64,000 nt of DNA from Thermoplasmata archaeon (GTDB lineage: Archaea > Thermoplasmatota > Thermoplasmata > Thermoplasmatales > Thermoplasmataceae): assembly GCA_021846395.1 (NCBI GenBank), contig JAJZXB010000006.1:26271-90270 (forward strand), given 5' to 3'. Under the pieces are notes generated by a model. That model did not search any database and was not told the DNA's origin. It saw only the letters and a program-made list of their open reading frames with translations. The translations under genes and the position numbers were made by a program. Of this stretch, positions 2,421 to 64,000 are shown one piece after another (within the stretch, counting starts at the first letter, position 1; every line of letters begins with the position of its first letter).

Positions 2421-2894
2421 ATGACGGATGTTATAGACCCGAACGCAAGGATCGCGGATCTTGTGGGTTTGTTGCATGTTTTGAGTAATATTTTTGAGGG
2501 AAAGACTAATTTATTTGAACTTGAAAAGGAGATGGAGGTTGATCTGGATGATTTAATGCCCATAGTTTATACTGCATCAAATCTTGGATTTGTCCATTCT
2601 GAGTCAGGAGACATATCAATCACAAACCTGGGAATAAGTTATATAAAATCTGGAATTGTTCAGAGAAAGAAGATTATCAGAGATATTTTAATAAATATTG
2701 AGCCATTTAAAAGTGCCATGGAACTCAAAATCTTTGAACTTGATGAAATAATGGAAAGGCTGATGGAAAATGGAGTTCAGACTTTTAATAACCCCGGTGG
2801 AAATCACGACCTTGAAGTAATCTTGATTGAGTGGGGGATTTATTCAAAATTTCTGTATAAATCAGACAATGGTTTTGAGGTTAAATTTAATTAA
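2421..2894 (+). CDS. ABC-transporter-associated 'AAA-associated C-terminal' domain protein, encoded separately
   Basis: 157 aa. The segment LVGLLHVL...LFELEKEMEVDLDDLMPIVYTASNLGFV...GDISITNLG matches the C-terminal accessory domain normally fused to NitT/TauT-type ABC ATPases. Same operon orientation as the ATPase and permease. Confidence 0.5.
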   Translation: MTDVIDPNARIADLVGLLHVLSNIFEGKTNLFELEKEMEVDLDDLMPIVYTASNLGFVHSESGDISITNLGISYIKSGIVQRKKIIRDILINIEPFKSAMELKIFELDEIMERLMENGVQTFNNPGGNHDLEVILIEWGIYSKFLYKSDNGFEVKFN

Positions 2895-3009
2895 TATCCC
2901 TGCAAATATGTCTGGAATGCATGGGAACTGAATAAAATCCAAATTTTTGCATAAAATATAGGTGTTTGAAATTTCATATAGTTTTTATAATATATCACTA
3001 TTTAAAATC

Positions 3010-4377
3010 ATGAGAAATAACATGAATAAACTGGAAGGAACCTATTCCGGAAGATATATATCCGGCCATGTACCGGAAAATGTTTTTCCTGAAAATGGAA
3101 TATCATCAAGAGCGGCGTATGAATTCATTCATGAGGAATTGAATCTGGATGGAAACCCAGAACTTAACCTTGCAACTTTTGTTACAACATGGATGGAACC
3201 GGAAGCAGATAAATTATACATGGAAAATGCGCATAAAAATTTCATTGATAATTTTGAATATCCACAGATAAAAAAAATTGAAACAAGGATTGTAAGAATT
3301 CTCTCAGAATTATACAGTTTAAAGGATGAAAATAAATTCTTTGGAGCTTCAACCATAGGTTCTTCTGAATCAATAATGCTTGCCCTTTTAGCACAAAAAT
3401 GGAACTGGAAAAATAAAATGAAATCAGAAGGGAAGGATTGCTCAAATCCAAATATTGTTTTTGGAGCAGATACGCATGTTGTATGGGATAAATTTGCAAG
3501 ATATTTTGATGTTGAGCCAAAAATTGTGCCACTTGATGAGAATACATTGAGGGTGAGCCCTGAAAAACTGGTTTCAATGGTGGATGAAAACACAATAGCA
3601 GTGGGAGCTGTCATGGGGACAACATTTACTGGAGCGTATGATGATGTAAAAAAAATAAATGAATTGCTGGAAGATCTAAAAAATAAAACAGGGAATGATG
3701 TGCCAATTCATGTTGACGCTGCCAGTGGTGGATTTATTACACCGTTTATTGAGCCGGAACTTGAATGGGATTTCAGGCTGAATCACGTAAAATCGATAAA
3801 TGTTTCCGGGCATAAATTCGGTCTGGTATACCCGGGACTTGGGTGGATTTTATTCAGGGATAGAAAGGACCTTCCAGAAGATCTGATGTTTTACGTAAAC
3901 TATCTGGGAGATGAAATGCCAACATACACCTTAAACTTTTCAAGAAGTTCGTCAAATATAGCAGCACAGTATTACAACATACTGAGAATGGGGAAAGCAG
4001 GGTACAAAAAAATTGCAGAGAATGTAATGGATAATGCGAAATATCTCGCAGAAAAGCTGAAAAATGTCAAAGATATTGAACTTGTAAGTGCTGCAGAACA
4101 TATACCGGTAATAACCTTCAGAAAAGTAAGTGAGGACGAATACTCACTTTTTGACCTTTCATCTGAAATGAAAAAGTTTGGATGGATCATACCCGCATAC
4201 TCCTTGCCAGAAAATGCCAGCCACATGGTTTTAATGAGAATTGTTGTTAGAGAGGGTTTGAGCATGGATATGATTGATCTTTTATATGATAATATACTGG
4301 AAGGCATTAAAAACCTTCAGGGGAATGCTGATAAAATGAGACAAATATCTCCAAGAAAGGGTCATTTTGTGAGCTGA
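3010..4377 (+). CDS. gadB: glutamate decarboxylase (PLP-dependent)
   Basis: The N-terminal region (GNPELNLATFVTTWMEPEADKL) and the PLP-lysine motif NVSGHKFGLVYPGLGWILFRD are characteristic of GAD. The start was moved from the ORF-track Met (2962) to internal Met 3010 (MRNNMNK); this is uncertain. Confidence 0.85.
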   Translation: MRNNMNKLEGTYSGRYISGHVPENVFPENGISSRAAYEFIHEELNLDGNPELNLATFVTTWMEPEADKLYMENAHKNFIDNFEYPQIKKIETRIVRILSELYSLKDENKFFGASTIGSSESIMLALLAQKWNWKNKMKSEGKDCSNPNIVFGADTHVVWDKFARYFDVEPKIVPLDENTLRVSPEKLVSMVDENTIAVGAVMGTTFTGAYDDVKKINELLEDLKNKTGNDVPIHVDAASGGFITPFIEPELEWDFRLNHVKSINVSGHKFGLVYPGLGWILFRDRKDLPEDLMFYVNYLGDEMPTYTLNFSRSSSNIAAQYYNILRMGKAGYKKIAENVMDNAKYLAEKLKNVKDIELVSAAEHIPVITFRKVSEDEYSLFDLSSEMKKFGWIIPAYSLPENASHMVLMRIVVREGLSMDMIDLLYDNILEGIKNLQGNADKMRQISPRKGHFVS

Positions 4378-17865: not shown

Positions 17866-19371
17866 ATGCTATCTTTGTTTTTAGGTGAATATTTGAATAG
17901 TGGAAATAATGAAAAACCAAATTCTGAAAATGATATAAAAACCATAACTGTGGCTTATGGCGATGGCATAGGGCCGGAGATAATGGATGCCACGCTCAGG
18001 ACCATAATGGCAGCAGGTGCAAAAATTAAAATCGAGACAATTGAGATAGGGGAATCAGTATATAAAAGGGGCATAAGTTCTGGTATAGAGCCATCAGCCT
18101 GGGATAAACTGAGAAAAACAAGAGTTTTTCTAAAAGCCCCCATAACCACTCCTGAGGGTGGAGGGTTTAAAAGCCTCAATGTAACAGTGCGCAAAACACT
18201 TGGATTGTTTGCAAACGTTCGTCCGTGCTTATCGTACTATCCATTTGTCGATACAAAACATCCCAGTATGGATGTAGTAATTGTCAGAGAAAATGAGGAG
18301 GATCTTTATGGTGGAATAGAGCACAGACAGACAGATGAAGTTTACCAGTGCCTGAAACTGATAACCAGACCCGGGTCAGAAAGGGTTATAAGATACGCAT
18401 TTGAATATGCAAAAAGATACAACCGCAAGAAGATCACATGCTTCACAAAGGACAACATAATGAAAATGACTGATGGTCTATTCCATAAGGTTTTTGATGA
18501 GATTGCAATGGAATATCCTGAGATAGAGAGTGAGCACTGGATAGTTGACATAGGAGCTGCAAAGCTTGCCGATACACCGGAAAATTTTGATGTTATCGTC
18601 ATGCCAAATCTCTATGGAGATATACTTTCAGATGTTGCAGCCCAAATTGCAGGTTCGGTTGGGCTTGCTGGCAGTGCTAATATTGGAAGTGATTTTGCTA
18701 TGTTTGAAGCCATACATGGTTCAGCACCGAGAAGGGCTGGGCAAAATGTTGCAAATCCATCAGGCCTTCTCCTTGCAGCTGTTCAGATGCTTGTCCATAT
18801 TGGGCAAGGCAGTGTAGCTGAAAAGGTGCACAATGCATGGCTACGTACAATAGAAGATGGGATCCACACGTATGATATATATGATCCGTCAGTGTCAAAA
18901 GAAAAAGTTGGTACAGTTGAATTTGCAGATGCTATTATTGCACGCCTTGGGGAAAAACCACAGAAACTAAAAGCGGTAACCTATCCTCCAAAGGGCGACC
19001 CAATTACAATAAAACTTAAGGATAGGCAACCAGCTATAAAGGATCTTGTTGGTATTGATGTTTTTCTTGATTGGAGAGGCGATGTTAACGTTCTTGGAAA
19101 AAGTCTGGAAAAAATTGCCCAGCCAGAATTCAAACTGGTCATGATAACAAATAGAGGTACAAAGGTATATCCTGGAGGAGTTCCTGAAACATTTATAGTG
19201 GATCATATGAGATGCCGTTTCCAATCGGCTGAAAATGATACTTCAGTAACAAATCAACAGATCATATCCTTGCTTTCTCGCCTTGTTTCATCTGAATTGC
19301 CTCCCATAAAAACGGAGAATCTTTATACCTTTGATGGACAGCCAGGTTTTTCACTGGGGCAGGGGCAATAA
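17866..19371 (+). CDS. icd: isocitrate dehydrogenase (NADP) family with ~130-aa C-terminal extension
   Basis: GDGIGPEI, SLNVTVRKTLGLFANVRP, NLYGDILSD and GSAPRRAGQN motifs of the IDH/IPMDH fold. Residues about 370-501 are extra. Confidence 0.75.
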   Translation: MLSLFLGEYLNSGNNEKPNSENDIKTITVAYGDGIGPEIMDATLRTIMAAGAKIKIETIEIGESVYKRGISSGIEPSAWDKLRKTRVFLKAPITTPEGGGFKSLNVTVRKTLGLFANVRPCLSYYPFVDTKHPSMDVVIVRENEEDLYGGIEHRQTDEVYQCLKLITRPGSERVIRYAFEYAKRYNRKKITCFTKDNIMKMTDGLFHKVFDEIAMEYPEIESEHWIVDIGAAKLADTPENFDVIVMPNLYGDILSDVAAQIAGSVGLAGSANIGSDFAMFEAIHGSAPRRAGQNVANPSGLLLAAVQMLVHIGQGSVAEKVHNAWLRTIEDGIHTYDIYDPSVSKEKVGTVEFADAIIARLGEKPQKLKAVTYPPKGDPITIKLKDRQPAIKDLVGIDVFLDWRGDVNVLGKSLEKIAQPEFKLVMITNRGTKVYPGGVPETFIVDHMRCRFQSAENDTSVTNQQIISLLSRLVSSELPPIKTENLYTFDGQPGFSLGQGQ

Positions 19372-19571
19372 ATATACCCATAAAAATATATAATTTTTAT
19401 TAAAGGGATTTAGAAAGTTAAATAATTCCACTATTATACTGTATTTTTCTTCGCTGTTGAATCTGCTTTTCATATTAATTATTCCATAATACTGTACAAC
19501 ACATATTCATACATTATTATGATTTTAGCCCTATAGGCATCCAAAATATTAAGATGTACATATAAGATGAG

Positions 19572-20003
19572 TCAAGTTACTTGGCATGGCTCATTTGAAA
19601 CTATATCGGTCTGATTAATTTTGTCTATTTCGCGAAGGCTTTTTGTCTTTGTGGGAATTGTAGAGTTGAACGATGCAATAGATCCGCCCTTTGAGTCCTT
19701 GAGCTCAAGTATGCTACCGTTAATAAGTGTTCCATTATTGACACTGGACTTCAACATGAAGTCAGGGAATTGCTGTGATGAGGAATATTTTATGGCCTCT
19801 TTGAGAGATGGGCATTCGGTATTTTTCCAAAAATCAAATGCAAAGTCTTTTTTTAACCCTTTTCTATCGTCCGCATATGCCATAGCTATACCCGCAGCTC
19901 TTTCAATTATTTCCAGCATATCTGAATCCATGTTTACCTTCCTTCTGTTTATCAGTCTTACGATAGACAGGTAAAGTTCCGAAATATCTTCAAAGGCAAT
20001 CAA
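19572..20003 (-). CDS. candidate Type II restriction endonuclease (PD-(D/E)xK-like)
   Basis: 143 aa, immediately downstream of and overlapping the MTase by 4 nt (ATGA). Contains ...E...FPDF-x19-ELKDSK, compatible with a PD...ExK catalytic motif. Confidence 0.4.
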   Translation of the reverse strand: MIAFEDISELYLSIVRLINRRKVNMDSDMLEIIERAAGIAMAYADDRKGLKKDFAFDFWKNTECPSLKEAIKYSSSQQFPDFMLKSSVNNGTLINGSILELKDSKGGSIASFNSTIPTKTKSLREIDKINQTDIVSNEPCQVT

Positions 20004-20914
20004 GTTATCACTTGTTGTTTGTCAAACAAAAAATTTTCAAGGGGCTTCTTGAATGGCCATATTTTATCAAGCGTTTCTGTTGGGCTGTAATAACCACGGA
20101 GTTTGGCAATATCATCTTCTTTCCTCAAAGAATAAAGGCGAGTCTTTACCAATTCAACGTATTTTGGATCAATTTCAATAGCCAAGCTATTTCTTTTTAG
20201 TTGAGAAGCAACCACAGCTGTTACGCCAGTTCCGGCTGTTGGGTCAAGAACAGTATCACCTGGAAGGGATGAAGATAAAACGATCCTAAGAAGAAGTGAT
20301 AGGGGTGCCTGCTGTTTGTGCATTCTTTTGCCACTTTTATCCCTAATTGCTTCATCACCTGCAAAATATCCTGAAGTCAATTCTCTAATATCATCCCAAA
20401 CATCAGTGAGTATGACACCGTTCCGTCTTTCATTCTTGTAGTTCTTTGGTAGTGGAACATTTGCACGGAGTCTGTTGAAGATTCTTGGCCTGTCACCTTT
20501 TGTTGCATAAACTATAATTTGAAACTGTTTGCCATACCGAAACTCAGATGGGACTGCAGATGTCATCTTTTTCCAAATTATAAGATTTTGAAAAGTCCAT
20601 CCAGATTTTCTGAGTGATCTTAAGACTTCTTCTGTGTTTTTTTCTCTTTGCATGAAATATATCGATGCTCCTTCAGTAGATTTTTTATTAATTAATCCTA
20701 GAACATCTTCGATCCACTTCCAGTACTCGCCAGTAGGTTGCTCATCATCAAAATTGAGATAATCTTTTCCCTGGTTGAATGGTGGGTCAAAAAAAGTCAG
20801 GTGGACAGTTTCATTCTCAATACCTCTTAAAGCTTCTACACAATCGTCATTGATTATTACGCTTCCATCTATCTTGGTAATATTTTTTTCTTCCATTTTC
20901 CTCACCATTATCAA
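20000..20914 (-). CDS. DNA methyltransferase, beta-class amino-MTase (N6-A or N4-C)
   Basis: Motif IV FFDPPF near the N-terminus and motif I LDPTAGTGVT near the C-terminus (circularly permuted beta order). Confidence 0.85.
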   Translation of the reverse strand: MIMVRKMEEKNITKIDGSVIINDDCVEALRGIENETVHLTFFDPPFNQGKDYLNFDDEQPTGEYWKWIEDVLGLINKKSTEGASIYFMQREKNTEEVLRSLRKSGWTFQNLIIWKKMTSAVPSEFRYGKQFQIIVYATKGDRPRIFNRLRANVPLPKNYKNERRNGVILTDVWDDIRELTSGYFAGDEAIRDKSGKRMHKQQAPLSLLLRIVLSSSLPGDTVLDPTAGTGVTAVVASQLKRNSLAIEIDPKYVELVKTRLYSLRKEDDIAKLRGYYSPTETLDKIWPFKKPLENFLFDKQQVIT

Positions 20915-21295
20915 AATCGCTTCTTTAAGTTTCTCCCTTCATCTCATTGTATGCATGTCTTAACATGGATTTCACAGAATTCTTAGTTTGCATATTCCAT
21001 CTCCCATTATTTTTGTGCTATTGATCGCCATGCCATCACAGCTCCCGTAATCTCTCACAAGATTATTAACACGGTATACAGAGAATACTCTTCTAATTTG
21101 TTGAGTCATTCTTCTGGTTCCATACTCATAAAAAGATAATCACTGACGTAATAAAAGTTTTTTGATTAATAAATTGCGTATATCCACATTATCCGAAAGT
21201 ATTTACAATGAAGTGGATTTAACGGTTTTTGATGCAATATTTTTTACAAAGTTTATATATAATAACGTATTGTAAATATAGCAGCGAATATCAAT

Positions 21296-21928
21296 TTATT
21301 TGCTTTGTAGCCTCTCAATCTCCTCCCTGATTTCTTCAATTACCTCGGTGTTATGAATTTGTTTTTTGTCCCCCGACTTAATAGAAATCACGTAAAACAC
21401 TTTGCCGCCATATTTTTGAATAAAATTTTCATGAGTCTTTAATTGCAAGGATCTTTCTTTGAAAATCTCTGGAATGTGGGCTGTATCTGCTACTGGTTTT
21501 ATTTGTAGACCAACATATTTTGACCCAACCCTTATAAAGAAATCTACATTAAACAGCCTATCCCATTCATCGGGTGCTGGTTCTATTTTCAATTTTAATA
21601 GTTCCTGGAGCTGCTCATAAATAGTTTTCCTTTCTGTCATATAGCCATCGAAAGTACGGTTAATCACTAAATTTACAATGAAATCAATGCAATCCTCTTC
21701 AGTAATCTCATTAATCTCGGCTGTTAAAACCTCTGTTATTTTTACGTAAAGTTTCCTACCAAGGTCTACCAAACGCTCTCTTGGATAAACGTGACTATAG
21801 TAGTATCTCTCCCAATCCTGCAAGATTTTTGGAGAGCACTTCCTAATCTCCTCAGAGACCTTACCGACATTCCTTGAATTCAGTTGAAACCTGTTGGTTG
21901 CACTATTTAAAATCCATTCCTTTGCCAT
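21296..21928 (-). CDS. candidate Type II restriction endonuclease
   Basis: 210 aa, directly downstream of the second MTase with a 1-nt overlap. Possible nuclease core PDEWDRLFNVDFF...YVGLQIKP (D...QxK variant). Confidence 0.35.
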   Translation of the reverse strand: MAKEWILNSATNRFQLNSRNVGKVSEEIRKCSPKILQDWERYYYSHVYPRERLVDLGRKLYVKITEVLTAEINEITEEDCIDFIVNLVINRTFDGYMTERKTIYEQLQELLKLKIEPAPDEWDRLFNVDFFIRVGSKYVGLQIKPVADTAHIPEIFKERSLQLKTHENFIQKYGGKVFYVISIKSGDKKQIHNTEVIEEIREEIERLQSK

Positions 21929-23166
21929 TATTGTTCACCGGCTGCTTTGATAAAATTTGTCCTATACCTGAAATTGCCGTTTTGTACATTTGCCATCCCT
22001 TGTTTCACTAACTCCTTGTTTACGAATATTTTATTCTTTAAGAAAACATAAGCAGGTACGATTTCTGCTTCTGCCTTTGAAAAGGGATCGAATTCCAAAA
22101 ACACATGCTTTCCTCTTACGTACTCATTCAAATAGGAAAGTATATTTTCGACCTCATTGGATATAATTTTGATTCCATAAAATTTCACTTTGAGCCCAGT
22201 ATCCAATTCCAGTGTTTCTGCGTCTATTACCTTTGTAACCTTATAGAGCTTCTCTGCCCCGAATTTCAACTTCTCTGGAGAAACAATCGGAGAAGCATCT
22301 TGAATATTAGGAACATATTCATATTCCTCTGGAATCTCTATATCTTGAGACTGAACGGCAAATTCTATGTTACTGTCATAGGTTAAGAGGTTTTTGCCTC
22401 TGTTTGTTTTCTCCCTAATTAATGAAAGAAAATTACTATTTATCTCATATCCGATGGAATTCCTATTAAGTTCAAGTGAGACCTTTGATGTTGTTCCACT
22501 ACCGAGGAATGGATCCAAAACTGTGTCTCCAACGAAACTGAACATTTTGATTATTCTTCTGGGCAATTCTTCAGGAAACATCGCTTCATGGCCCACCTGT
22601 CTCTCACCATTGAAGTTCCAGTGGCCATAGAAATACTCCTTCCACTCCTCTTTTGTAAGTTTTGATTTTTCCTTCAAATCCGGGGATACTGAACGATTTC
22701 CTTGCTTTTTGAATATTAGTATGAACTCATAGTCAATTTCAACCAAGCCATTTGGGGGAAAAGGATAGGAGCCCATAACTGAGGCTCCTCCAGTGGTGTT
22801 CATAGTAGTCTTTTTTTGCCAAATAATTGAGCCCATATAATCAAAGCCGATTCTCTCACATTGGATGATAAACTCAGAATGTAAGGGGGCAATTTTGTAT
22901 CTACCATATACTACGCTTCTAAGAAACTGATCACCTATGTTTATGCATAGCCTCGACCCCTGTTTAAGGACCCGGTAACACTCTTTCCACACAGTATAAA
23001 GGCTCTTTAAATACTCATGTAACGATTGCCCAAAACCAATTTGCCCTTCCGCATCATAATTCTTTATATGCCAGTAAGGCGGCGATGTCACTACTAGATC
23101 AACAGTAGAGTCCTCTAATTCCACCATTTTCCTACTATCTCCATTAATAATTTTTGAAGTAATCAT
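21928..23166 (-). CDS. DNA methyltransferase (beta-class, SPPY) fused to C-terminal SNase-like domain
   Basis: Motif IV TSPPYW near the N-terminus and motif I LDPFLGSGTT. The C-terminal ~140 aa resembles staphylococcal nuclease (KVTKVIDAETLEL...FVNKELVKQGMANV, cf. SNase VNEALVRQGLAKV) but lacks the DTPE catalytic residues. Confidence 0.8.
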   Translation of the reverse strand: MITSKIINGDSRKMVELEDSTVDLVVTSPPYWHIKNYDAEGQIGFGQSLHEYLKSLYTVWKECYRVLKQGSRLCINIGDQFLRSVVYGRYKIAPLHSEFIIQCERIGFDYMGSIIWQKKTTMNTTGGASVMGSYPFPPNGLVEIDYEFILIFKKQGNRSVSPDLKEKSKLTKEEWKEYFYGHWNFNGERQVGHEAMFPEELPRRIIKMFSFVGDTVLDPFLGSGTTSKVSLELNRNSIGYEINSNFLSLIREKTNRGKNLLTYDSNIEFAVQSQDIEIPEEYEYVPNIQDASPIVSPEKLKFGAEKLYKVTKVIDAETLELDTGLKVKFYGIKIISNEVENILSYLNEYVRGKHVFLEFDPFSKAEAEIVPAYVFLKNKIFVNKELVKQGMANVQNGNFRYRTNFIKAAGEQ

Positions 23167-23550
23167 GATTCACCCATAATAAAGAAATAGCATCTTAAAC
23201 ATTATATAAATTTAAGGATATCTCTTTTCAAATATTTTTTTTCTATTTCATCCTTGCATTTAAATTATCCGTTTAATATCTGTTATCTCACGGTACAGTT
23301 AATTCGTTGATTTTCAGGTAAATTAACTTGATGTGACGGGAATATTCAACAAAAAACAGATATTTGGAAAGTTTCCCATTGAATAAATGAAATAAATTTG
23401 ATCGAAGGAAATAAAAATATTACCAAGCAATTCCAGCCGGACTCGCACATGGGCGGGATAAACCACTGAAACTGGTAGGTATTTCTGTCATGGTTATAAC
23501 CAGATTGTGATGCATTTATCCACAAAGTTGGCTAATTCCTACATCGCTAA

Positions 23551-23622
23551 TGGACCGGCCGGGATTTGGACCCGGGCCCTCTTGCTTGCGAAGCAAGCGA
23601 TCTACCGCTGATCTACCGGCCC
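23551..23622 (-). tRNA. tRNA-Ala (anticodon CGC)
   Basis: Minus-strand cloverleaf: acceptor GGGCCGG with G3:U70 wobble (Ala identity element), D-arm GATC/GATC, anticodon stem CTTGC/GCAAG with loop UUCGCAA, T-arm CCGGG-TCCAAAT-CCCGG, discriminator A. The T-loop has C at position 55, which is atypical. It abuts the RFC stop codon. Confidence 0.75.
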
Positions 23623-24578
23623 TAATTGATCTCGCTTCCGATATATGATAACTTTGCTATAAGTGCATCCATTTGAATATTATCTGTTCCACCTTCAACT
23701 ATCCTGAATTCGGCCTCAGCAAGAGCCATGATAATTTCAAGTTTTTGTTTATATGCTATTTGTTCTTTTCTTATGGATGAATGCATACCCTTTATTATAT
23801 CTATTCCTGACAGTCCATAGTCTATAAGCATTTTATCAAGCAAATCTCTTGCCTGATTGAAATTTCCCTCAAGAGCAATATTTATCAGGTTTTTATATTC
23901 ATTTTTATTTATTTCCCCTGCTATTCTGTATATTGTCAATGGATCTATTTTTCCAGATGTTTTAATTGCCTGAAGTACATTTATTGCCTTTCTCATATCA
24001 CCTTCAGAGATTTCATATATTGCATTCAGGGATTCATCATCAATTTCAAATCCTTCCTTCTTTGATATTGCCCTCAATTTAGCCTTCATTTCATCCTCAT
24101 TTACAGGAGAAAATCTCAATACTACACATCTTGACTGAATGGGAGGTATAATTTTTGAAGAATAATTGCATGAAAATATGAATCTTGTTGTATTGTAATA
24201 CATTTCCATCGTTCTTCTTAAGGCAGCCTGTGCATCGCCGGTTAAATGGTCCGCCTCATCCAGAAATATTATCTTGAATCCAATGTCATTTGAAGGTTTT
24301 ATTTTGGCAAAATTTTTGATATTTTCCCTTATAATATCTATACCTCTTTCATTTGAAGCGTTCAGTTCCAGAAAATTATCCTTCCATGACTCACCAAAAA
24401 GCTCAATTGCCAGAGCTATTGCTGTTGAGGTCTTTCCTGTTCCTGGAGGGCCAGCAAATATCAAATGAGGTATATTCTTTTCCTTAACAAAGGAGTCAAG
24501 CCTGTTTATATTATCTGATTCACCGATTACACCGGATAGCTTTGTAGGTCTGTATTTTTCAGTCCATATGTTGATCAT
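23622..24578 (-). CDS. rfcS: replication factor C small subunit
   Basis: WTEKYRP...GPPGTGKTS Walker A, DEAD-like FLDEAD, SRC motif (QSRCVVLRF). No intein. Confidence 0.9.
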   Translation of the reverse strand: MINIWTEKYRPTKLSGVIGESDNINRLDSFVKEKNIPHLIFAGPPGTGKTSTAIALAIELFGESWKDNFLELNASNERGIDIIRENIKNFAKIKPSNDIGFKIIFLDEADHLTGDAQAALRRTMEMYYNTTRFIFSCNYSSKIIPPIQSRCVVLRFSPVNEDEMKAKLRAISKKEGFEIDDESLNAIYEISEGDMRKAINVLQAIKTSGKIDPLTIYRIAGEINKNEYKNLINIALEGNFNQARDLLDKMLIDYGLSGIDIIKGMHSSIRKEQIAYKQKLEIIMALAEAEFRIVEGGTDNIQMDALIAKLSYIGSEIN

Positions 24579-25860: not shown

Positions 25861-26043
25861 GGTGAATATTTAAAAAATAGATAATATTTACCTATTTTTG
25901 GAATTATATTATATTTCCTGAAAATTATTGATACTGCTATTTTTAAGTATGTTATCACACATTGAGTTCCCGCACTCTATTATGAGCGATTCAATTTTAC
26001 ATAATTTTAAAGGCTTAATACGATAATATAAATATCAACAAGT

Positions 26044-27318
26044 TCACTCAATAATATCATCCTTTAAAAGAAAGTTTAAAAGCGATGTGTATTTTATTTT
26101 ATAACCATTTTTCTCTATTGCGTCATTAAAATCCCATGTTATGATTTCCATGTTATCACATTTTAATTCCTTTAAGCCCTTATTTAAGGATATAATTTCT
26201 CTTTGTTTTACCTCTTTAAAAGAAGAAGCATAAGTGACATTTATCATTTTTATTATTTTTTCTTTTTGCTTTATTATAAAATCAATCTCATGGTCATTGT
26301 AATCTTTCCAATAATACAACTCATAATTTTTTAGAAATGATAATCTCAATAACTCAATTAAAACAATATTTTCCATTAATTTACCCTTATCAGGATTAAT
26401 TTTGAATGATGCATAATTTATTAAGCCCGTATCAACACAGAAATATTTTCTTTTTGCCTTAAATTGTTCTTTGAATTTAAACGAAAATTTTTTAATTGGT
26501 ATTATAAGATATGAATTTTCTATGTAATTTATGTACTTGGTTAGGGTGTGTAAATCTTTTATCTGAAAATTGTTTTTTATATTATTTATTGATATTTCAT
26601 TACCAGAGTTTGATACTAAATAATCGGCAACCTCTCTTATATTGTTATTTTTTATATTTTTATTATATATTATATCATTTTCAACAATGTCATGAAAAAT
26701 GGTATTTATTATTATTGTACCTATCTTATAAACTTCGGGAAAACCTCCGGAATCCATATAATTATTAAGTTCGTTTATCAATATTCCTAAATTTTCAATA
26801 TTATTATAATCTATATTTTTTATTTTTAAATATTCCCTGAAACTTAATGGGTATAATTTTAATTCCACATACCTTCCAGTTAAATACTTTGCTAAATTGC
26901 TTCCTAATAATTCAGAATTTGATCCTGTTATGATTATTTTTTTATTTATTCTAAATCTAGAAACAAAGAGTTGCCAACCTTTTATTCTTTGGATTTCATC
27001 AAAAATAAAATAATCAATATTGCCATATATTTCATAAAATGCACTTATTAAAATTTCGAAGTCTTCACTTGTGAAATTTGCCAATCTTTCATCAAAGAAA
27101 TTTATATACCCATATTTTTTTTCTTTAAGTAAAAACAAACCAAGTATGGATTTGCCAGATCTCCTTATGCCCGTTATTGCAAGTATATTTGGATATTCAA
27201 GATATTTTTCAGGATTTATTTTTAAAATTTCCCTATCAATTATTTGATTTTCCTTAAAAAAAGTATCCATAGTTTTTCTTTGTGATATTATAATATTTGT
27301 CAATTTTTGTGTGTTCAT
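26044..27318 (-). CDS. AAA+ ATPase with C-terminal DUF4143 (COG1373 family)
   Basis: Walker A GIRRSGKS, Walker B IFDEIQ, and a C-terminal restriction-endonuclease-like region. The gene is markedly more AT-rich than its neighbours. Confidence 0.75.
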   Translation of the reverse strand: MNTQKLTNIIISQRKTMDTFFKENQIIDREILKINPEKYLEYPNILAITGIRRSGKSILGLFLLKEKKYGYINFFDERLANFTSEDFEILISAFYEIYGNIDYFIFDEIQRIKGWQLFVSRFRINKKIIITGSNSELLGSNLAKYLTGRYVELKLYPLSFREYLKIKNIDYNNIENLGILINELNNYMDSGGFPEVYKIGTIIINTIFHDIVENDIIYNKNIKNNNIREVADYLVSNSGNEISINNIKNNFQIKDLHTLTKYINYIENSYLIIPIKKFSFKFKEQFKAKRKYFCVDTGLINYASFKINPDKGKLMENIVLIELLRLSFLKNYELYYWKDYNDHEIDFIIKQKEKIIKMINVTYASSFKEVKQREIISLNKGLKELKCDNMEIITWDFNDAIEKNGYKIKYTSLLNFLLKDDIIE

Positions 27319-27477
27319 TTATCAATAATCACATAGATTAATTTAATCTTTGTGGTTTATCTAATTAATAGAAATTATTATATATATTATAATTTATATG
27401 AACAAGAAAAGTATTATAGCAATATCTATTATAACAATAATGATAATGGCTGGTTTTACTGGACTGATATATTATAA

Positions 27478-27806
27478 CTCTCCACAGGTGGCAAGCCCCC
27501 AAAGCTCTCCATTGACCGGAAGAATGTGTTGAAATTATTGCTGGGAGAAAAAGACCTCTGGATTATCAAGGAGATAGATACCCTAATAAGAGAGAAATTT
27601 TATATTCCATATTCTGAGAGGCAGATACGCAGAATACTTAAAGGATTCAAGATGAGGCATGCAAAACCCTATCAGATGAATTACAGAAAACCTGAGAATG
27701 CGGAGGAAAAACTCGGTACAATGGACCAAAAAGCAGGATGCCATTCTTGAACTGCTGGGCAAGATATCACAGTTGTATAAGAAGGGAGTTAAGGTTTTAA
27801 AATATT
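27478..27806 (+). pseudogene. IS630/Tc1-like transposase internal fragment (remnant)
   Basis: The frame opens without a Met and reads TGGKPPKLSIDRKNVLKLL...YSERQIRRILKGFKMRHAKPYQ, matching the region following the HTH of IS630 transposases. It is interrupted by stops and a frame change, and no DDE domain follows. Confidence 0.5.
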
Positions 27807-61450: not shown

Positions 61451-61681
61451 TCATATAACATGAAGAAGAAGAATTATCCCCAACACGAATCCTATAATCC
61501 ACAGTGTTTCAGGTATAACAAAGAAGAAAAGAACCTGTCCGAATTTTTCAGGCTTTTCTGCAATAATACCCATACCGGCAGCTCCTATACCCTGTTGCGC
61601 CATACCAGTTCCGATCAAACCTCCTGCAATAGCTATTGACGCCGCTATTGCCAGTAATGCATCTGCTGTAGTAATAACCAT
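61451..61681 (-). CDS. atpK: A/V-type ATP synthase proteolipid subunit K (c)
   Basis: 76 aa, two TM helices, conserved ...GQVLFFFVIPETLWI... with the essential Glu. Confidence 0.85.
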   Translation of the reverse strand: MVITTADALLAIAASIAIAGGLIGTGMAQQGIGAAGMGIIAEKPEKFGQVLFFFVIPETLWIIGFVLGIILLLHVI

Positions 61682-61719: not shown

Positions 61720-62302
61720 ATTATTTATTCTGGCATTGTTAACTTTTAGTAGATGATTAAAGGCAATTGGACACGGTATTTAAAATTTTGTGTAAATTTA
61801 AGGATATCCATTTTGAAACGTTTTCTCTAATTTATCTTTGCATTTAAAGTATCTGTTCAATCCTTTATTATCCCATGATACATTCAATTCATTGACCATC
61901 AGGTGAACTACCCTGGCGTATTATGGCTCAAAGAATAAGCCGAGTACAAATTATATTTATGAACATGCAACAGTTTCCGTTGTTGCAAAGAGAATAAGAT
62001 TTGTTATTGGTGTTTTGCATGTGGAAGAGATGAAGATACATAAAATGGTTTCAAAACTTATAGAAATGATGGGATGACAAGGAGAAAAGTGATAGAGTTT
62101 GTTTACATGGGAAAACACACATTTTCGGAATAGATGATGGATGGAGCTTATATGGAAAGAAATTCAGGGGTTCTAACGGTTTATTACCGGCATATACAAA
62201 AAAGAAAAATTTATTTATATATATTATACATTTATGCAAAGGAAAAAATATTTAATGTTAATATCGCTAGTTCCTGTGCCATGGTATTATTGAGGTGTTA
62301 AA

Positions 62303-62599: not shown

Positions 62600-64000
62600 A
62601 GCCACTGAGTCTTGCAATGTGGATGAAGTGCAAATATTTATATTATTGAATTGCATATTTTCGATATATGAAGATATCACAGCCGATAAAGCCTACAGAT
62701 CATTTTAATGATAGGTATTCATCTATTGATGCAATACAACTAGAAACTGTAAATAAACATATTGGGGAACAGAACCATGTCTGAGAAATCAGATAAAATT
62801 AGCAAATCTATACGTGAAACAAGGGAAAGGAGGAAGTCACAGACATGCATATCCTATGAACTGAAAATAGATATATCACATCTAGGCAAAACAAAGGTAA
62901 AGAATCTTAATCGTATCTTTCTTGAGGCAAAGTGGTTTTATAATTATATCTTATCAGAAGATGATATCTATAACCAGGATTACAGGATTAATAAAGTTAA
63001 GATAAAGGTAAAGGACCATTATGAAGATAGAGATATATTGTTATTATCATCACAGATGAAACAGGAAATTGTTGATAAAACTAAGGATAGCATAAGGGGC
63101 CTTTCAAATTCAAAGAAGAATGGCAATAAGATTGGAAAACTTCATTTCAAAAGAAGGATCAACTCAATACCTTTGAAGCAATATAAAAATACATATAATA
63201 TTTCAGGTAAATATGTTAGAATCCAGAGGATAGGCAGGTTAAAGGTTTCCGGTATTGAACAGATACCAAAAGATGCTGATATAGCTAATGCAACACTTGA
63301 ATCTAGAAATGGGGATTATTTTATCCATATATCAACATTTACAAAACCAAAGGATATAGAACATTCTGATAATGGTATTGGTATTGATTTCGGTATTAAA
63401 AGTTCATTAACACTATCAAATGGAATAATCATTAATGAAGATATACCACTAACAGGGAAGGCTATAAAACTTCATAAAGAACTATCACGTAGAAAACAGC
63501 ATGGGAAGAACTGGTATAAAACACTGAATAAATTAAATAAAGAGTATAATAATATAACACAGAAGAAGAAGGATGCTAGAAATAAGATAGTTAATATTAT
63601 AACAAATAGTTTTGAGACAATTGCATTCCAGAATGATCCCATAAAAGGATGGATGAGATTGTGGGGAAGAAAGATTCAAGGATCAGCAATAGGAGGAATA
63701 ATGGATGATTTAAAGAGAAAATCACGTACTCCTAAGATTGTTCCAAGATATACACCCACATCACAGGTATGCTCAAAATGCAATCACAGGCAGAAGATGC
63801 CTCTGAAAGAACGAACATTCAACTGTGAATCATGCAATATCTCTATTGATCGGGATCTAAATGCATCAATAAATATATTAGAATATATGGTACCTGTGGA
63901 ACACAGGGAATATACGCCTATGGACATTAAAACCTATACCTACAACATTTAATGAAGTTTATTTTACTTTATGTGCGTATTTAGCATTCATATATGTGTG
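62600..64000 (+). mobile_element. IS200/IS605-type insertion sequence (tnpB-only), right end runs to or past the window edge
   Basis: TnpB ORF with no adjacent tnpA. Element boundaries are not determinable from sequence alone; the 3' ~150 nt plus downstream would encode the omega/right-end RNA. Confidence 0.45.
62762..63952 (+). CDS. tnpB: IS200/IS605-family TnpB (OrfB) RNA-guided endonuclease
   Basis: RuvC-I IGIDFGIK, RuvC-II (ETIAFQND), zinc finger CSKCNHR...CESCN, RuvC-III DRDLNASINI. The start is probably at MSEKSDK (62777). Confidence 0.85.
   Translation: MGNRTMSEKSDKISKSIRETRERRKSQTCISYELKIDISHLGKTKVKNLNRIFLEAKWFYNYILSEDDIYNQDYRINKVKIKVKDHYEDRDILLLSSQMKQEIVDKTKDSIRGLSNSKKNGNKIGKLHFKRRINSIPLKQYKNTYNISGKYVRIQRIGRLKVSGIEQIPKDADIANATLESRNGDYFIHISTFTKPKDIEHSDNGIGIDFGIKSSLTLSNGIIINEDIPLTGKAIKLHKELSRRKQHGKNWYKTLNKLNKEYNNITQKKKDARNKIVNIITNSFETIAFQNDPIKGWMRLWGRKIQGSAIGGIMDDLKRKSRTPKIVPRYTPTSQVCSKCNHRQKMPLKERTFNCESCNISIDRDLNASINILEYMVPVEHREYTPMDIKTYTYNI

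What the first reader, a model, noticed from the sequence alone, without database searches (positions are those of the whole stretch)
19572..23622. Two back-to-back compact Type II R-M systems forming a defence islet abutting tRNA-Ala
Between icd and the tRNA-Ala/RFC locus lie two minus-strand MTase plus small-ORF pairs, each with the downstream ORF overlapping its MTase stop (ATGA and 1-nt overlaps). The MTases are different beta-class amino-MTases (DPPF...FxGxG and SPPY...FxGxG). The small partners (143 and 210 aa) have no recognisable family but carry PD...ExK / D...QxK-like cores, as expected for fast-evolving Type II REases. tRNA 3' ends are classic integration hot-spots, and the islet ends about 385 nt from the 3' end of tRNA-Ala(CGC); the tRNA itself has an unusual C55 in its T-loop.
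Basis: partly seen in the sequence, partly recalled or inferred. Interest (0 to 1): 0.6.

Follow-up and report, generated by a model that had tools for sequence, protein, structure and literature searches.

The report
One intact, one decayed restriction-modification module
Next to a tRNA-Ala gene, this Ferroplasma-like archaeon carries one complete, ordinary restriction-modification system of the MjaI family and the leftover methylase of a second system whose nuclease gene has lost its last ~60%. It is a routine variable defence patch, not two compact new systems.

Summary
The gene layout is real: four minus-strand ORFs lie between icd and tRNA-Ala(CGC)/RFC, as two methyltransferase-then-small-ORF pairs.

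**Pair 2** (M2 412 aa, R2 210 aa) is a complete Type II module. R2 is a full-length member of Pfam RE_MjaI (1e-45), so it does have a recognisable family. M2 is a beta-class SPPY methyltransferase with a conserved C-terminal staphylococcal-nuclease-fold domain. The same gene pair recurs in bacteria and archaea. The target is probably CTAG with m4C methylation, but this is untested.

**Pair 1** has an intact DPPF methyltransferase. Its 143-aa partner is only the first ~135 residues of a highly conserved ~327-aa protein family that always follows an orthologous methyltransferase. That family is absent from Pfam, NCBIfam and PADLOC and looks like a PD-(D/E)XK nuclease. Homology stops at window position ~19594 and no remnant lies downstream. 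System 1 is therefore degenerate: a solitary methylase plus a nuclease stub.

Comparison with three relatives shows that the whole 4.1-kb interval, starting 2 nt after the tRNA, is a variable slot with different content in each genome. No att repeat or integrase is present.

Verdict: an ordinary new member of known kinds. Interest is low.

The parts
23551..23622 (-). tRNA-Ala(CGC). Its first base is the last base of the RFC stop codon TAG. It has the G3:U70 pair and a T-loop UCCAAAU (C55). Its 3' end marks the proximal border of the variable slot.
   Evidence: ARAGORN. Rfam RF00005, 67 bits. Alignment with relatives.
19406..23548 (.). Variable slot (the 'islet', 4143 bp), defined by the synteny break. 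The flanks are 85-88% identical to Thermoplasmata MAG TL1-4.bin46 (L008). L008 carries an unrelated 1742 bp here.
   Evidence: blastn of window against L008, L009 and L010. ORFs and Pfam of the relatives' slots.
23195..23330 (.). ~135-nt sequence upstream of M2. It has a second copy (78% identity) at window 61781-61915. It contains the TATA-like box TTTATATA (23210-23203, minus strand), 37 nt upstream of the M2 ATG.
21928..23166 (-). M2: 412-aa beta-class amino-methyltransferase (TSPPYW at aa 27-32, DPFLGSGTT at aa 218-226). It also has a C-terminal staphylococcal-nuclease-fold domain (about aa 305-410, nt 21937-22254).
   Evidence: Pfam PF01555 3.4e-47 and PADLOC MTase_II PDLC03259 1.7e-122. 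PDB 2zie 9.6e-53. Homologs of 62-85% identity and ~413 aa. AF2 plus Foldseek hit to SNase 2rdf, TMt 0.72.
21296..21928 (-). R2: 210-aa MjaI-family Type II restriction endonuclease, full length. Its start overlaps the M2 stop by 1 nt (TAATG).
   Evidence: Pfam RE_MjaI 9.8e-46, profile 1-164/164. PADLOC REase_II 1.8e-32. 58-59% identity to partners of M2 homologs in L034 and L036. Same pair in L037.
20000..20908 (-). M1: 302-aa beta-class amino-methyltransferase (FFDPPFNQG, DPTAGTGVT), apparently intact. The mechanical ORF extends to a TTG at 20914.
   Evidence: Pfam PF01555 1.7e-38. 55-61% identity over about aa 20-290 to the methyltransferases that precede full-length R1-family genes, and 82% to L033. 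Nearest solved structures are M.MboIIA and CcrM.
19572..20003 (-). R1 stub: a 143-aa ORF with a TTG start that overlaps the M1 stop (TTGA). Residues 1 to ~136 match the N-terminus of a ~327-aa family and keep E...PD...ELK. The last 7 codons (NEPCQVT*) are unrelated sequence.
   Evidence: Homolog searches and alignments. Breakpoint. The same stub occurs in >=20 contigs.
19594..19594 (.). Truncation breakpoint. Protein and nucleotide homology to intact relatives ends here (...GTTTCAAA|TGAGCC...).
   Evidence: All tblastn HSPs end at 19596. blastn against L033 ends at 19594. Side-by-side sequence.
19406..19593 (.). 188 nt of unassigned DNA between the breakpoint and the point where synteny with L008 resumes. 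It holds no remnant of the missing R1 C-terminus.
20915..21295 (.). 381-nt spacer between the two modules. It holds no gene of recognisable family and matches nothing else fetched.

Best explanation
The 4.1-kb interval between the 3' end of tRNA-Ala(CGC) and the end of icd is a variable slot in a Ferroplasmaceae genome. It holds two horizontally acquired methyltransferase-first R-M modules in different states.

**Module 2 (M2-R2)** is a complete Type IIP system.
- It is transcribed from its own TATA box.
- M2, a beta-class SPPY enzyme, methylates the host's sites, probably as N4-methylcytosine.
- R2, an MjaI-family endonuclease, is translationally coupled to M2 by the TAATG overlap and cuts unmethylated incoming DNA at the same site. 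By family membership that site is probably C^TAG.

**Module 1** is degenerate.
- M1 is an intact DPPF enzyme, probably an N6-adenine methyltransferase, and presumably still methylates its target.
- Its partner gene was cut at nt ~19594 by a deletion or rearrangement. Only the N-terminal accessory domain and the first half of the putative PD-(D/E)XK core remain.
- It therefore no longer restricts. M1 now acts as a solitary methylase.

**Shown by computation:** gene identities, family memberships, the truncation and its breakpoint, conserved pairing of each module elsewhere, and variability of the slot.

**Inferred:** methylated bases, the CTAG specificity, nuclease activity of the R1 family, inactivity of the stub, and the way the DNA arrived.
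For: **M2-R2**
- Pfam, PADLOC and PDB hits.
- R2 aligns end to end with partners of M2 homologs.
- The M2-type methyltransferase followed by an RE_MjaI gene recurs in Kryptonium (L034), Archaeoglobales (L036) and another Thermoplasmatales MAG (L037).
- MjaI, MthZI and MaeI cut C^TAG. M.MjaI and M.MthZI are beta-class m4C enzymes with SPPY (PMC5867850, PMC11033074, PMC2615612).

**M1 and the stub**
- The R1 family has >1,684 hits, nearly all ~327 aa, with 67% mean column identity.
- It lies immediately after a PF01555 methyltransferase in 5 of 5 independent contexts. Those methyltransferases are 55-61% identical to M1.
- The window ORF aligns only to family residues ~1-150.
- The AF2 model (pLDDT 86) places strands 171-179 and 188-193 and a C-terminal domain beyond the break.
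- Distant ~275-aa relatives share only profile positions ~80-320, so the conserved core is mostly missing from the stub.
- No C-terminal remnant lies downstream.
- The close relative L033 reads in frame to at least 227 aa, and its homology with the window ends at 19594.

**Slot variability:**

**Not an assembly artefact:** the identical arrangement occurs in >=20 contigs from many samples.
Against: - No biochemical or methylome data exist for either module.
- M2 (412 aa, with an SNase-fold domain) differs in architecture from M.MjaI and M.MthZI, which PMC5867850 gives as 303-364 aa. CTAG specificity is therefore an extrapolation from the REase family only.
- CTAG depletion in the window (zero-order O/E 0.19) is matched in L008, which lacks the islet at this locus (0.11). 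It says nothing either way.
- The stub keeps all the motif residues and its native TTG start.
- Its divergence relative to M1 (R/M identity ratio 0.72-0.87, against 0.83-0.95 for intact pairs) is not clearly that of a pseudogene.
Confidence: 0.8

Rival explanations
1. One reading: both pairs are complete compact Type II systems, and the 143-aa ORF is a small but functional fast-evolving REase.
For: The ORF keeps the invariant E, PD and ELK residues, starts at the family's native position, overlaps the M1 stop and is fixed in >=20 contigs.
Against: - More than 1,684 relatives are nearly all ~327 aa and carry many invariant motifs after residue 150 (VDGSFFET, DQTIIA, RPRLRIMAEVH.EGNPH, HKRNGEH). 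All of these are absent here.
- Homology ends abruptly 7 codons before the stop.
- The modelled core sheet is incomplete.
- The conserved region shared with distant relatives is profile positions 80-320.
Confidence: 0.06
2. The ~327-aa partner family of M1 is not a restriction endonuclease. It is some other methyltransferase-associated protein, such as a repair nuclease, a regulator or a modification-dependent factor. Pair 1 was then never an R-M system.
Against: - A strict two-gene M-then-partner arrangement, abutting or overlapping, occurs in 5 of 5 unrelated genomes of different phyla.
- E31, PD94-95 and E114-x-K116 are invariant, on a helix and a beta-hairpin as in PD-(D/E)XK enzymes.
- A patchy phyletic spread with very high conservation is typical of mobile R-M modules.
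Confidence: 0.12
3. The islet is the decayed remnant of a tRNA-Ala-targeting integrative element. The same deletion that truncated R1 removed its integrase and distal att site. This is compatible with the main explanation and concerns only how the DNA arrived.
For: - The variable DNA starts 2 nt after the tRNA 3' end in all four genomes compared, each with different content.
- Acidiplasma aeolicum has unknown ORFs plus an AAA ATPase at the same place.
- The R1 breakpoint lies only 188 nt from the distal border.
- The same modules sit beside recombinases elsewhere: IS110-like in L033, resolvase in L037 and L001.
Against: - No copy of the tRNA 3' segment exists anywhere in the 64-kb window, even with mismatches allowed, or in L009.
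- The slot holds no integrase or fragment of one.
- GC content (0.33-0.40) is like the flanks.
Confidence: 0.3
4. M2-R2 is intact but recognises a sequence other than CTAG.
For: M2 belongs to a ~413-aa methyltransferase+SNase-fold family, not the 303-364-aa M.MjaI/M.MthZI type. Identity of R2 to characterised R.MjaI could not be measured here.
Against: R2 matches the whole RE_MjaI profile at 1e-45. M2 has SPPY, as the m4C CTAG enzymes do.
Confidence: 0.25

Closest known systems
MjaI / MthZI / MaeI Type II R-M systems (C^TAG; M.MjaI and M.MthZI are beta-class m4C methyltransferases)
   Same: R2 is a full-length RE_MjaI-family protein. The gene order is methyltransferase then endonuclease, and the host is archaeal. 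The methyltransferase is beta-class with SPPY.
   Different: M2 is ~50-110 aa longer and carries a C-terminal staphylococcal-nuclease-fold domain that the published M.MjaI/M.MthZI lengths do not suggest. Specificity and activity are untested here.
Uncharacterised ~327-aa methyltransferase-linked protein family (e.g. P0112 in a Marinimicrobia MAG, P0032 in Bathyarchaeota, P0107 in Hydrothermarchaeota), all labelled 'hypothetical protein'
   Same: The window ORF shares 41-51% identity over its first ~135 residues, including the invariant E, PD and ELKDSKG. Its upstream methyltransferase is orthologous (55-61%).
   Different: The window copy lacks residues ~150-327. The family itself has no described function, and its REase nature is inferred.
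EcoRV-like branch of PD-(D/E)XK Type II endonucleases (EcoRV, HincII, SwaI, SfiI, BglI, NlaIV, ThaI) and archaeal Hjc
Solitary (orphan) methyltransferases left behind by R-M decay
   Same: An intact methyltransferase sits next to an inactivated or truncated endonuclease gene.
   Different: Whether M1 is still expressed and has acquired any regulatory role is unknown.
tRNA-adjacent genomic islands / defence islands
   Same: A hypervariable segment begins at a tRNA 3' end. It holds clustered R-M modules, and each relative carries different cargo.
   Different: There is no integrase and no att direct repeat, and the segment is only 4.1 kb.

Membership tests
Beta-class N6/N4 amino-methyltransferases (PF01555) | Significant match to the N6_N4_Mtase domain | tested here: met
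   M1 1.7e-38 and M2 3.4e-47, both covering the full profile. PDB relatives are M.MboIIA and CcrM for M1, and TTHA0409 for M2.
Beta-class N6/N4 amino-methyltransferases (PF01555) | Motif IV ((D/S)PP(Y/F)) lies N-terminal to motif I (FxGxG-like) | tested here: met
   M1 has DPPF at aa ~43 and DPTAGTG at aa ~224. M2 has SPPY at aa 28 and DPFLGSG at aa 218 (translations).
MjaI-family Type II R-M system (CTAG) | Endonuclease matching RE_MjaI (PF09568) over its full length | tested here: met
   9.8e-46, profile 1-164/164. PADLOC REase_II 1.8e-32. No truncation relative to homologs.
MjaI-family Type II R-M system (CTAG) | A cognate methyltransferase gene directly adjacent, with the pairing conserved elsewhere | tested here: met
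   1-nt overlap. The same pair occurs in L034, L036 and L037.
MjaI-family Type II R-M system (CTAG) | Methyltransferase of the M.MjaI/M.MthZI type (m4C, SPPY, 303-364 aa) | tested here: inconclusive
   SPPY is present, but M2 is 412 aa with an extra SNase-fold domain. Lengths are from PMC5867850.
MjaI-family Type II R-M system (CTAG) | Recognition and cleavage of C^TAG, with protection by Cm4TAG | not testable with these tools
   CTAG depletion (O/E 0.19) is equally strong in a relative that lacks the islet at this locus.
~327-aa methyltransferase-linked putative REase family (R1 family) | Sequence homology including the invariant E...PD...ELKDSKG | tested here: met
   7.5e-71 to 1e-27 against family members. 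The motif residues are retained.
~327-aa methyltransferase-linked putative REase family (R1 family) | Full-length protein (~320-330 aa) with the conserved region at positions ~80-320 | tested here: not met
   The window ORF is 143 aa. Homology ends at family residue ~150 (nt 19594), with no downstream remnant.
~327-aa methyltransferase-linked putative REase family (R1 family) | Lies immediately downstream of an orthologous PF01555 methyltransferase | tested here: met
   5 of 5 contexts. Those methyltransferases are 55-61% identical to M1.
PD-(D/E)XK nuclease superfamily (for the R1 family) | alpha-beta-beta-beta-alpha-beta core fold carrying the catalytic D and (D/E)xK | tested here: inconclusive
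tRNA-targeted integrative element / genomic island | Border at the tRNA 3' end and presence/absence variation among relatives | tested here: met
   The synteny break is 2 nt after the tRNA in L008, L009 and L010. Each holds different content.
tRNA-targeted integrative element / genomic island | Direct repeat of the tRNA 3' segment (attL/attR) | tested here: not met
   The 23-nt and 13-nt 3' segments, with up to 3 and 2 mismatches allowed, occur only in the tRNA itself. The repeat scan found nothing relevant.
tRNA-targeted integrative element / genomic island | Integrase or recombinase gene in the element | tested here: not met
   The slot holds only the four ORFs, and none has a recombinase domain.

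The most novel reading that the evidence does not exclude
The 143-aa stub may not be junk. It keeps the family's native TTG start, its N-terminal helical domain and every putative catalytic residue (E, PD, ExK). It is fixed in at least 20 metagenomic contigs. It could be retained as a working small protein, for example as a subunit 'poison' that blocks re-invasion by intact homologous nucleases, or as a nuclease module that works with another partner.

In addition, its parent ~327-aa family, absent from Pfam, NCBIfam and PADLOC, would be an undescribed Type II endonuclease family of unknown specificity, spread across archaea and bacteria.
Probability: 0.05. Interest if true: 0.55.

Novelty: new member of a known kind. 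Interest (0 to 1): 0.22.

Why it matters
- It corrects the annotation. One functional-looking MjaI-family R-M system, probably CTAG/m4C, can be predicted for this uncultured acidophile. A second methylation motif is expected from a solitary methylase, which helps in reading metagenomic methylomes and in binning.
- It gives a clear, dated example of R-M decay. The endonuclease is lost by deletion while the methylase is kept, in a tRNA-adjacent slot that turns over between close relatives.
- The one item of wider use is a by-product. A large, very conserved, uncurated ~327-aa methyltransferase-linked family is a good candidate for a new restriction enzyme. The window itself holds only a fragment of it.

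Tried and rejected
- **Curated families for the 143-aa ORF and its relatives.** Pfam, NCBIfam, PADLOC and PDB sequence or profile searches found nothing for the ORF, its full-length relatives or its distant relatives.
- **Downstream remnant of R1.** tblastn for a frameshifted C-terminal remnant in 19201-20100 found none.
- **att search.** A repeat scan and direct searches for the tRNA 3' segment in the window and in L009 found none.
- **Relaxed selection on the stub.** The R/M identity ratios overlap those of intact pairs, so the test is inconclusive.
- **CTAG avoidance as evidence of specificity.** It is uninformative, because a relative without the islet is equally depleted and the third-order Markov O/E is 0.88.
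- **Plasmid records.** tblastn of the R1 family and R2 against PLSDB gave no match.
- **Foldseek of the R1-family model against PDB.** No significant hit. The afdb50 library was unavailable.
- **PDB sequence search with the M2 C-terminal domain alone.** Only noise. The fold search was needed to show the SNase fold.
- **Spacers against all fetched loci.** No match, except one internal repeat in the window.
- **Rfam on the islet and on the second repeat copy.** Only the tRNA was found.

Full report
**1. What is in the sequence**

Four ORFs lie on the minus strand between icd and the tRNA-Ala/RFC locus:

| Feature | Coordinates | Strand | Size |
|---|---|---|---|
| icd (flank; Iso_dh plus bacterial-type C-domain) | 17866-19371 | + | |
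| small ORF | 20003..19572 | - | 143 aa |
| M1 | 20914..20000 | - | 304 aa as listed, 302 aa from the ATG at 20908 |
| R2 | 21928..21296 | - | 210 aa |
| M2 | 23166..21928 | - | 412 aa |
| tRNA-Ala(CGC) (flank) | 23551-23622 | - | |
| RFC small subunit (flank) | 23622-24578 | - | |

- Both large ORFs are PF01555 N6_N4 methyltransferases (1.7e-38 and 3.4e-47). They have many PADLOC Type II MTase hits.
- Motif IV (DPPF in M1, SPPY in M2) precedes motif I (DPTAGTG, DPFLGSG), which is the beta-class order.
- The M1/small-ORF junction is cTTGAt, not ATGA. The ORF begins at TTG, and its first ATG is codon 25.
- The closest relative also starts with a Leu codon at the same aligned position, so TTG is probably the native start.

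**2. Source organism**

- The RFC protein is 93% identical to a Thermoplasmata MAG (TL1-4.bin46).
- It is 88% identical to Acidiplasma aeolicum and 84% identical to a Ferroplasma MAG.
- Window GC is 0.34.
- The window therefore comes from a member of the Ferroplasmaceae.

**3. Pair 2 is a complete, known kind of system**

- R2 matches Pfam RE_MjaI over the entire profile (9.8e-46, 1-164/164) and a PADLOC REase_II model (1.8e-32). The statement that it has no recognisable family is wrong.
- R2 aligns end to end (58-59% identity) with the genes that follow M2 homologs in Candidatus Kryptonium (L034) and an Archaeoglobales MAG (L036).
- A third copy of the pair (411 aa + 210 aa) sits in another Thermoplasmatales MAG in a different neighbourhood, with a resolvase, DndB and PIN (L037). 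M2+R2 therefore moves as a unit.
- M2 belongs to a very conserved ~413-aa family, 62-85% identical across many archaeal and bacterial phyla.
- Its N-terminal 260 residues resemble TTHA0409 and N4-cytosine or N6-adenine beta-class enzymes.
- Its last ~105 residues adopt a staphylococcal-nuclease fold: Foldseek 2rdf and 4evo, TMt 0.72-0.73, rmsd 2.4-2.5 A. Pfam SNase is detected in many homologs.
- The thermonuclease signature V-R-L-x-G-I-D-x-P-E reads V-K-F-Y-G-I-K-I-I-S here. My reading is that this is a non-catalytic, probably DNA-binding, domain.
- Published work states that MjaI, MthZI and MaeI cut C^TAG. M.MjaI and M.MthZI are beta-class m4C enzymes with SPPY, 303-364 aa long (PMC5867850, PMC11033074, PMC2615612).
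- CTAG/m4C is therefore the best guess for M2-R2. The longer architecture of M2 means that guess rests on the endonuclease family alone.
- CTAG is strongly depleted in the window (38 observed against 200 expected from base composition). It is equally depleted in L008, which lacks the islet at this locus, and the Markov-corrected ratio is 0.88. This is not evidence.
- A TATA-like box (TTTATATA) lies 37 nt upstream of the M2 ATG.

**4. Pair 1 is a methylase plus a nuclease stub**

*No curated match.* The 143-aa ORF has no Pfam, NCBIfam, PADLOC or PDB sequence match.

*Parent family.*
- The first search returned 27 homologs. Several extended far beyond the ORF's C-terminus.
- A profile search then returned more than 1,684 proteins, nearly all 320-331 aa, with 67% mean column identity.
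- The window ORF aligns only to family residues ~1-150.
- It lacks every conserved block after that point: FYLxRT, VDGSFFETxPK, DQTIIA, RPRLRIMAEVHxEGNPH and HKRNGEH.

*Breakpoint.*
- All tblastn matches to the window stop at nt 19596, and nothing related lies in the 200 nt before icd.
- A relative from the same sample series (L033) has a methyltransferase 82% identical to M1. Its partner reads in frame to at least 227 aa.
- Nucleotide homology between L033 and the window ends at 19594. After that, the window reads seven unrelated codons (NEPCQVT) and a stop.
- The arrangement is not an assembly error. The same 143-aa ORF, 200 nt from icd, is present in at least 20 contigs from many samples, including GCA_027368435.1.

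*What the family is.*
- In 5 of 5 independent contexts it lies directly after, and abuts or overlaps, a PF01555 methyltransferase. The contexts are a Thermoproteota MAG, a Marinimicrobia MAG and three other metagenomic or MAG contigs.
- Those methyltransferases are 55-61% identical to M1.
- An AlphaFold model of P0112 is confident (pLDDT 86, pTM 0.83). It places the invariant PD (94-95) and E114-x-K116 on a beta-hairpin, followed by a helix and strands 171-179 and 188-193.
- Foldseek finds nothing significant.
- In a library clustered at 50% identity the family has 225 representatives. Distant ~275-aa members share only profile positions ~80-320, so the first ~80 residues are an accessory domain.
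- None of these relatives hits Pfam, PADLOC or NCBIfam.

*Conclusion for pair 1.*
- The family is most likely an uncurated Type II endonuclease.
- The window retains its accessory domain plus about 55 residues of a ~240-residue core, and so has very probably lost activity.
- A test for relaxed constraint was inconclusive. The R/M identity ratio is 0.72-0.87 for the window and 0.83-0.95 for intact pairs.
- M1 itself aligns without gaps or frameshifts to its orthologs. Its nearest solved relatives are the m6A enzymes M.MboIIA and CcrM. With DPPF, it is probably an N6-adenine methylase that now acts alone.

**5. The tRNA-adjacent slot**

- blastn against L008 shows 85-88% identity from window 25836 down to 23549, which is 2 nt past the tRNA 3' end.
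- Homology resumes at 19405, 34 nt past the icd stop, and continues through icd, the SDR gene and beyond.
- Between those points the window has 4143 bp. L008 has an unrelated 1742 bp with a SnoaL-like gene and an MFS fragment.
- Homology with Acidiplasma aeolicum (L009) and a Ferroplasma MAG (L010) also ends at 23549. After that they carry, respectively, unknown ORFs plus an AAA ATPase, and a small zinc-ribbon-like ORF.
- The slot is therefore hypervariable. It begins at the tRNA, not 385 nt away from it.
- The tRNA 3' segment has no second copy in the window or in L009, even with mismatches allowed.
- There is no integrase, and GC content matches the flanks.
- Acquisition through a tRNA-targeting element that has since decayed is possible. 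The R1 breakpoint is only 188 nt from the distal border, so one deletion could have removed both. This is not demonstrated.

**6. The tRNA**

- C55 is real (T-loop UCCAAAU).
- It is shared by L008 and L010, whereas Acidiplasma has the usual U55.
- The window's tRNA-Pro is normal.
- Psi55 is described as nearly universal (PMC1616971 abstract).
- This is a lineage feature of one tRNA and is unrelated to the islet.

**7. Verdict**

- System 2 is a new member of a known family.
- System 1 is a decayed member of an uncurated, but by context ordinary, R-M family.
- Nothing here is mechanistically unusual.
- The only broadly useful lead is the uncharacterised ~327-aa family, and the window holds just a fragment of it.

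Noticed in passing
window 23195-23330 and 61781-61915: A ~135-nt sequence upstream of M2, including its TATA-like box, has a second copy at 78% identity. That copy lies in the intergenic region between the ATP synthase c-subunit gene (61681..61451, -) and an IS605 OrfB/TnpB gene (62762-63952, +). The window holds only these two copies. There is no Rfam hit, and the RNA fold z-score is -2.7. It could be a small mobile element, an IS end relic or a shared regulatory segment.
   Followed up: partly
window 21937-22254 (M2 residues ~305-410): M2 carries a C-terminal staphylococcal-nuclease-fold domain. This domain is conserved in a ~413-aa methyltransferase family that is always followed by an RE_MjaI gene. 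The thermonuclease catalytic motif appears degenerate (V-K-F-Y-G-I-K-I-I-S in place of V-R-L-x-G-I-D-x-P-E). Published CTAG methylases are given as 303-364 aa, so they seem to lack this domain.
   Followed up: partly
window 23551-23622; L008 2215-2286; L010 1313-1384; L009 1778-1849: tRNA-Ala(CGC) has C at position 55 (T-loop UCCAAAU) in the window and in two Ferroplasma-like relatives. Acidiplasma aeolicum has the usual U55, and tRNA-Pro in the window is normal. This tRNA would lack the near-universal Psi55.
   Followed up: partly
window 23622-23624: The first base of tRNA-Ala is the last base of the RFC small-subunit stop codon (TAG|GGCCGG). The same holds in L008 and L010. Acidiplasma has a 46-nt gap. 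This suggests co-transcription of RFC mRNA and the tRNA.
   Followed up: no
window 26000-27500: A markedly low-GC segment (22-24% against 34% for the window) carries a 424-aa AAA_14/DUF4143 ATPase gene (26044-27318, -). It is possibly another acquired segment, upstream of RFC.
   Followed up: no
L033 1-3622: This contig from a related organism holds two inverted copies of an M1/R1-like module meeting inside the R1 gene, next to an IS110-like transposase. It is either a real inverted duplication or a hairpin assembly artefact. It shows the R1 gene reading to at least 227 aa in this lineage.
   Followed up: partly
L001 3696-4720 (also L002, L003): In a Thermoproteota MAG the R1-family gene is split into a 98-aa and a 243-aa ORF with a 4-nt overlap. 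This looks like another independent disruption (a frameshift) of the same putative endonuclease beside an intact methyltransferase.
   Followed up: no
L020, L021, L023 (methyltransferases at ~2820-4004): Some orthologs of M1 are 382-394 aa. They carry an extra ~110-aa N-terminal domain that is absent from M1 and from the L001 and L017 enzymes. Its function is unknown.
   Followed up: no
window, whole 64 kb: CGCG is the most depleted 4-mer palindrome (8 observed against 53 expected from base composition), ahead of CTAG. CGCG is the site of ThaI-type systems listed for Thermoplasma, Picrophilus and I-plasma.
   Followed up: no
L034 1-1709: In Candidatus Kryptonium the M2-R2 module lies directly after another methyltransferase plus an unannotated 358-aa gene. 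A HEPN gene and a Schlafen/AlbA_2 gene are also nearby. R-M modules cluster there too.
   Followed up: no
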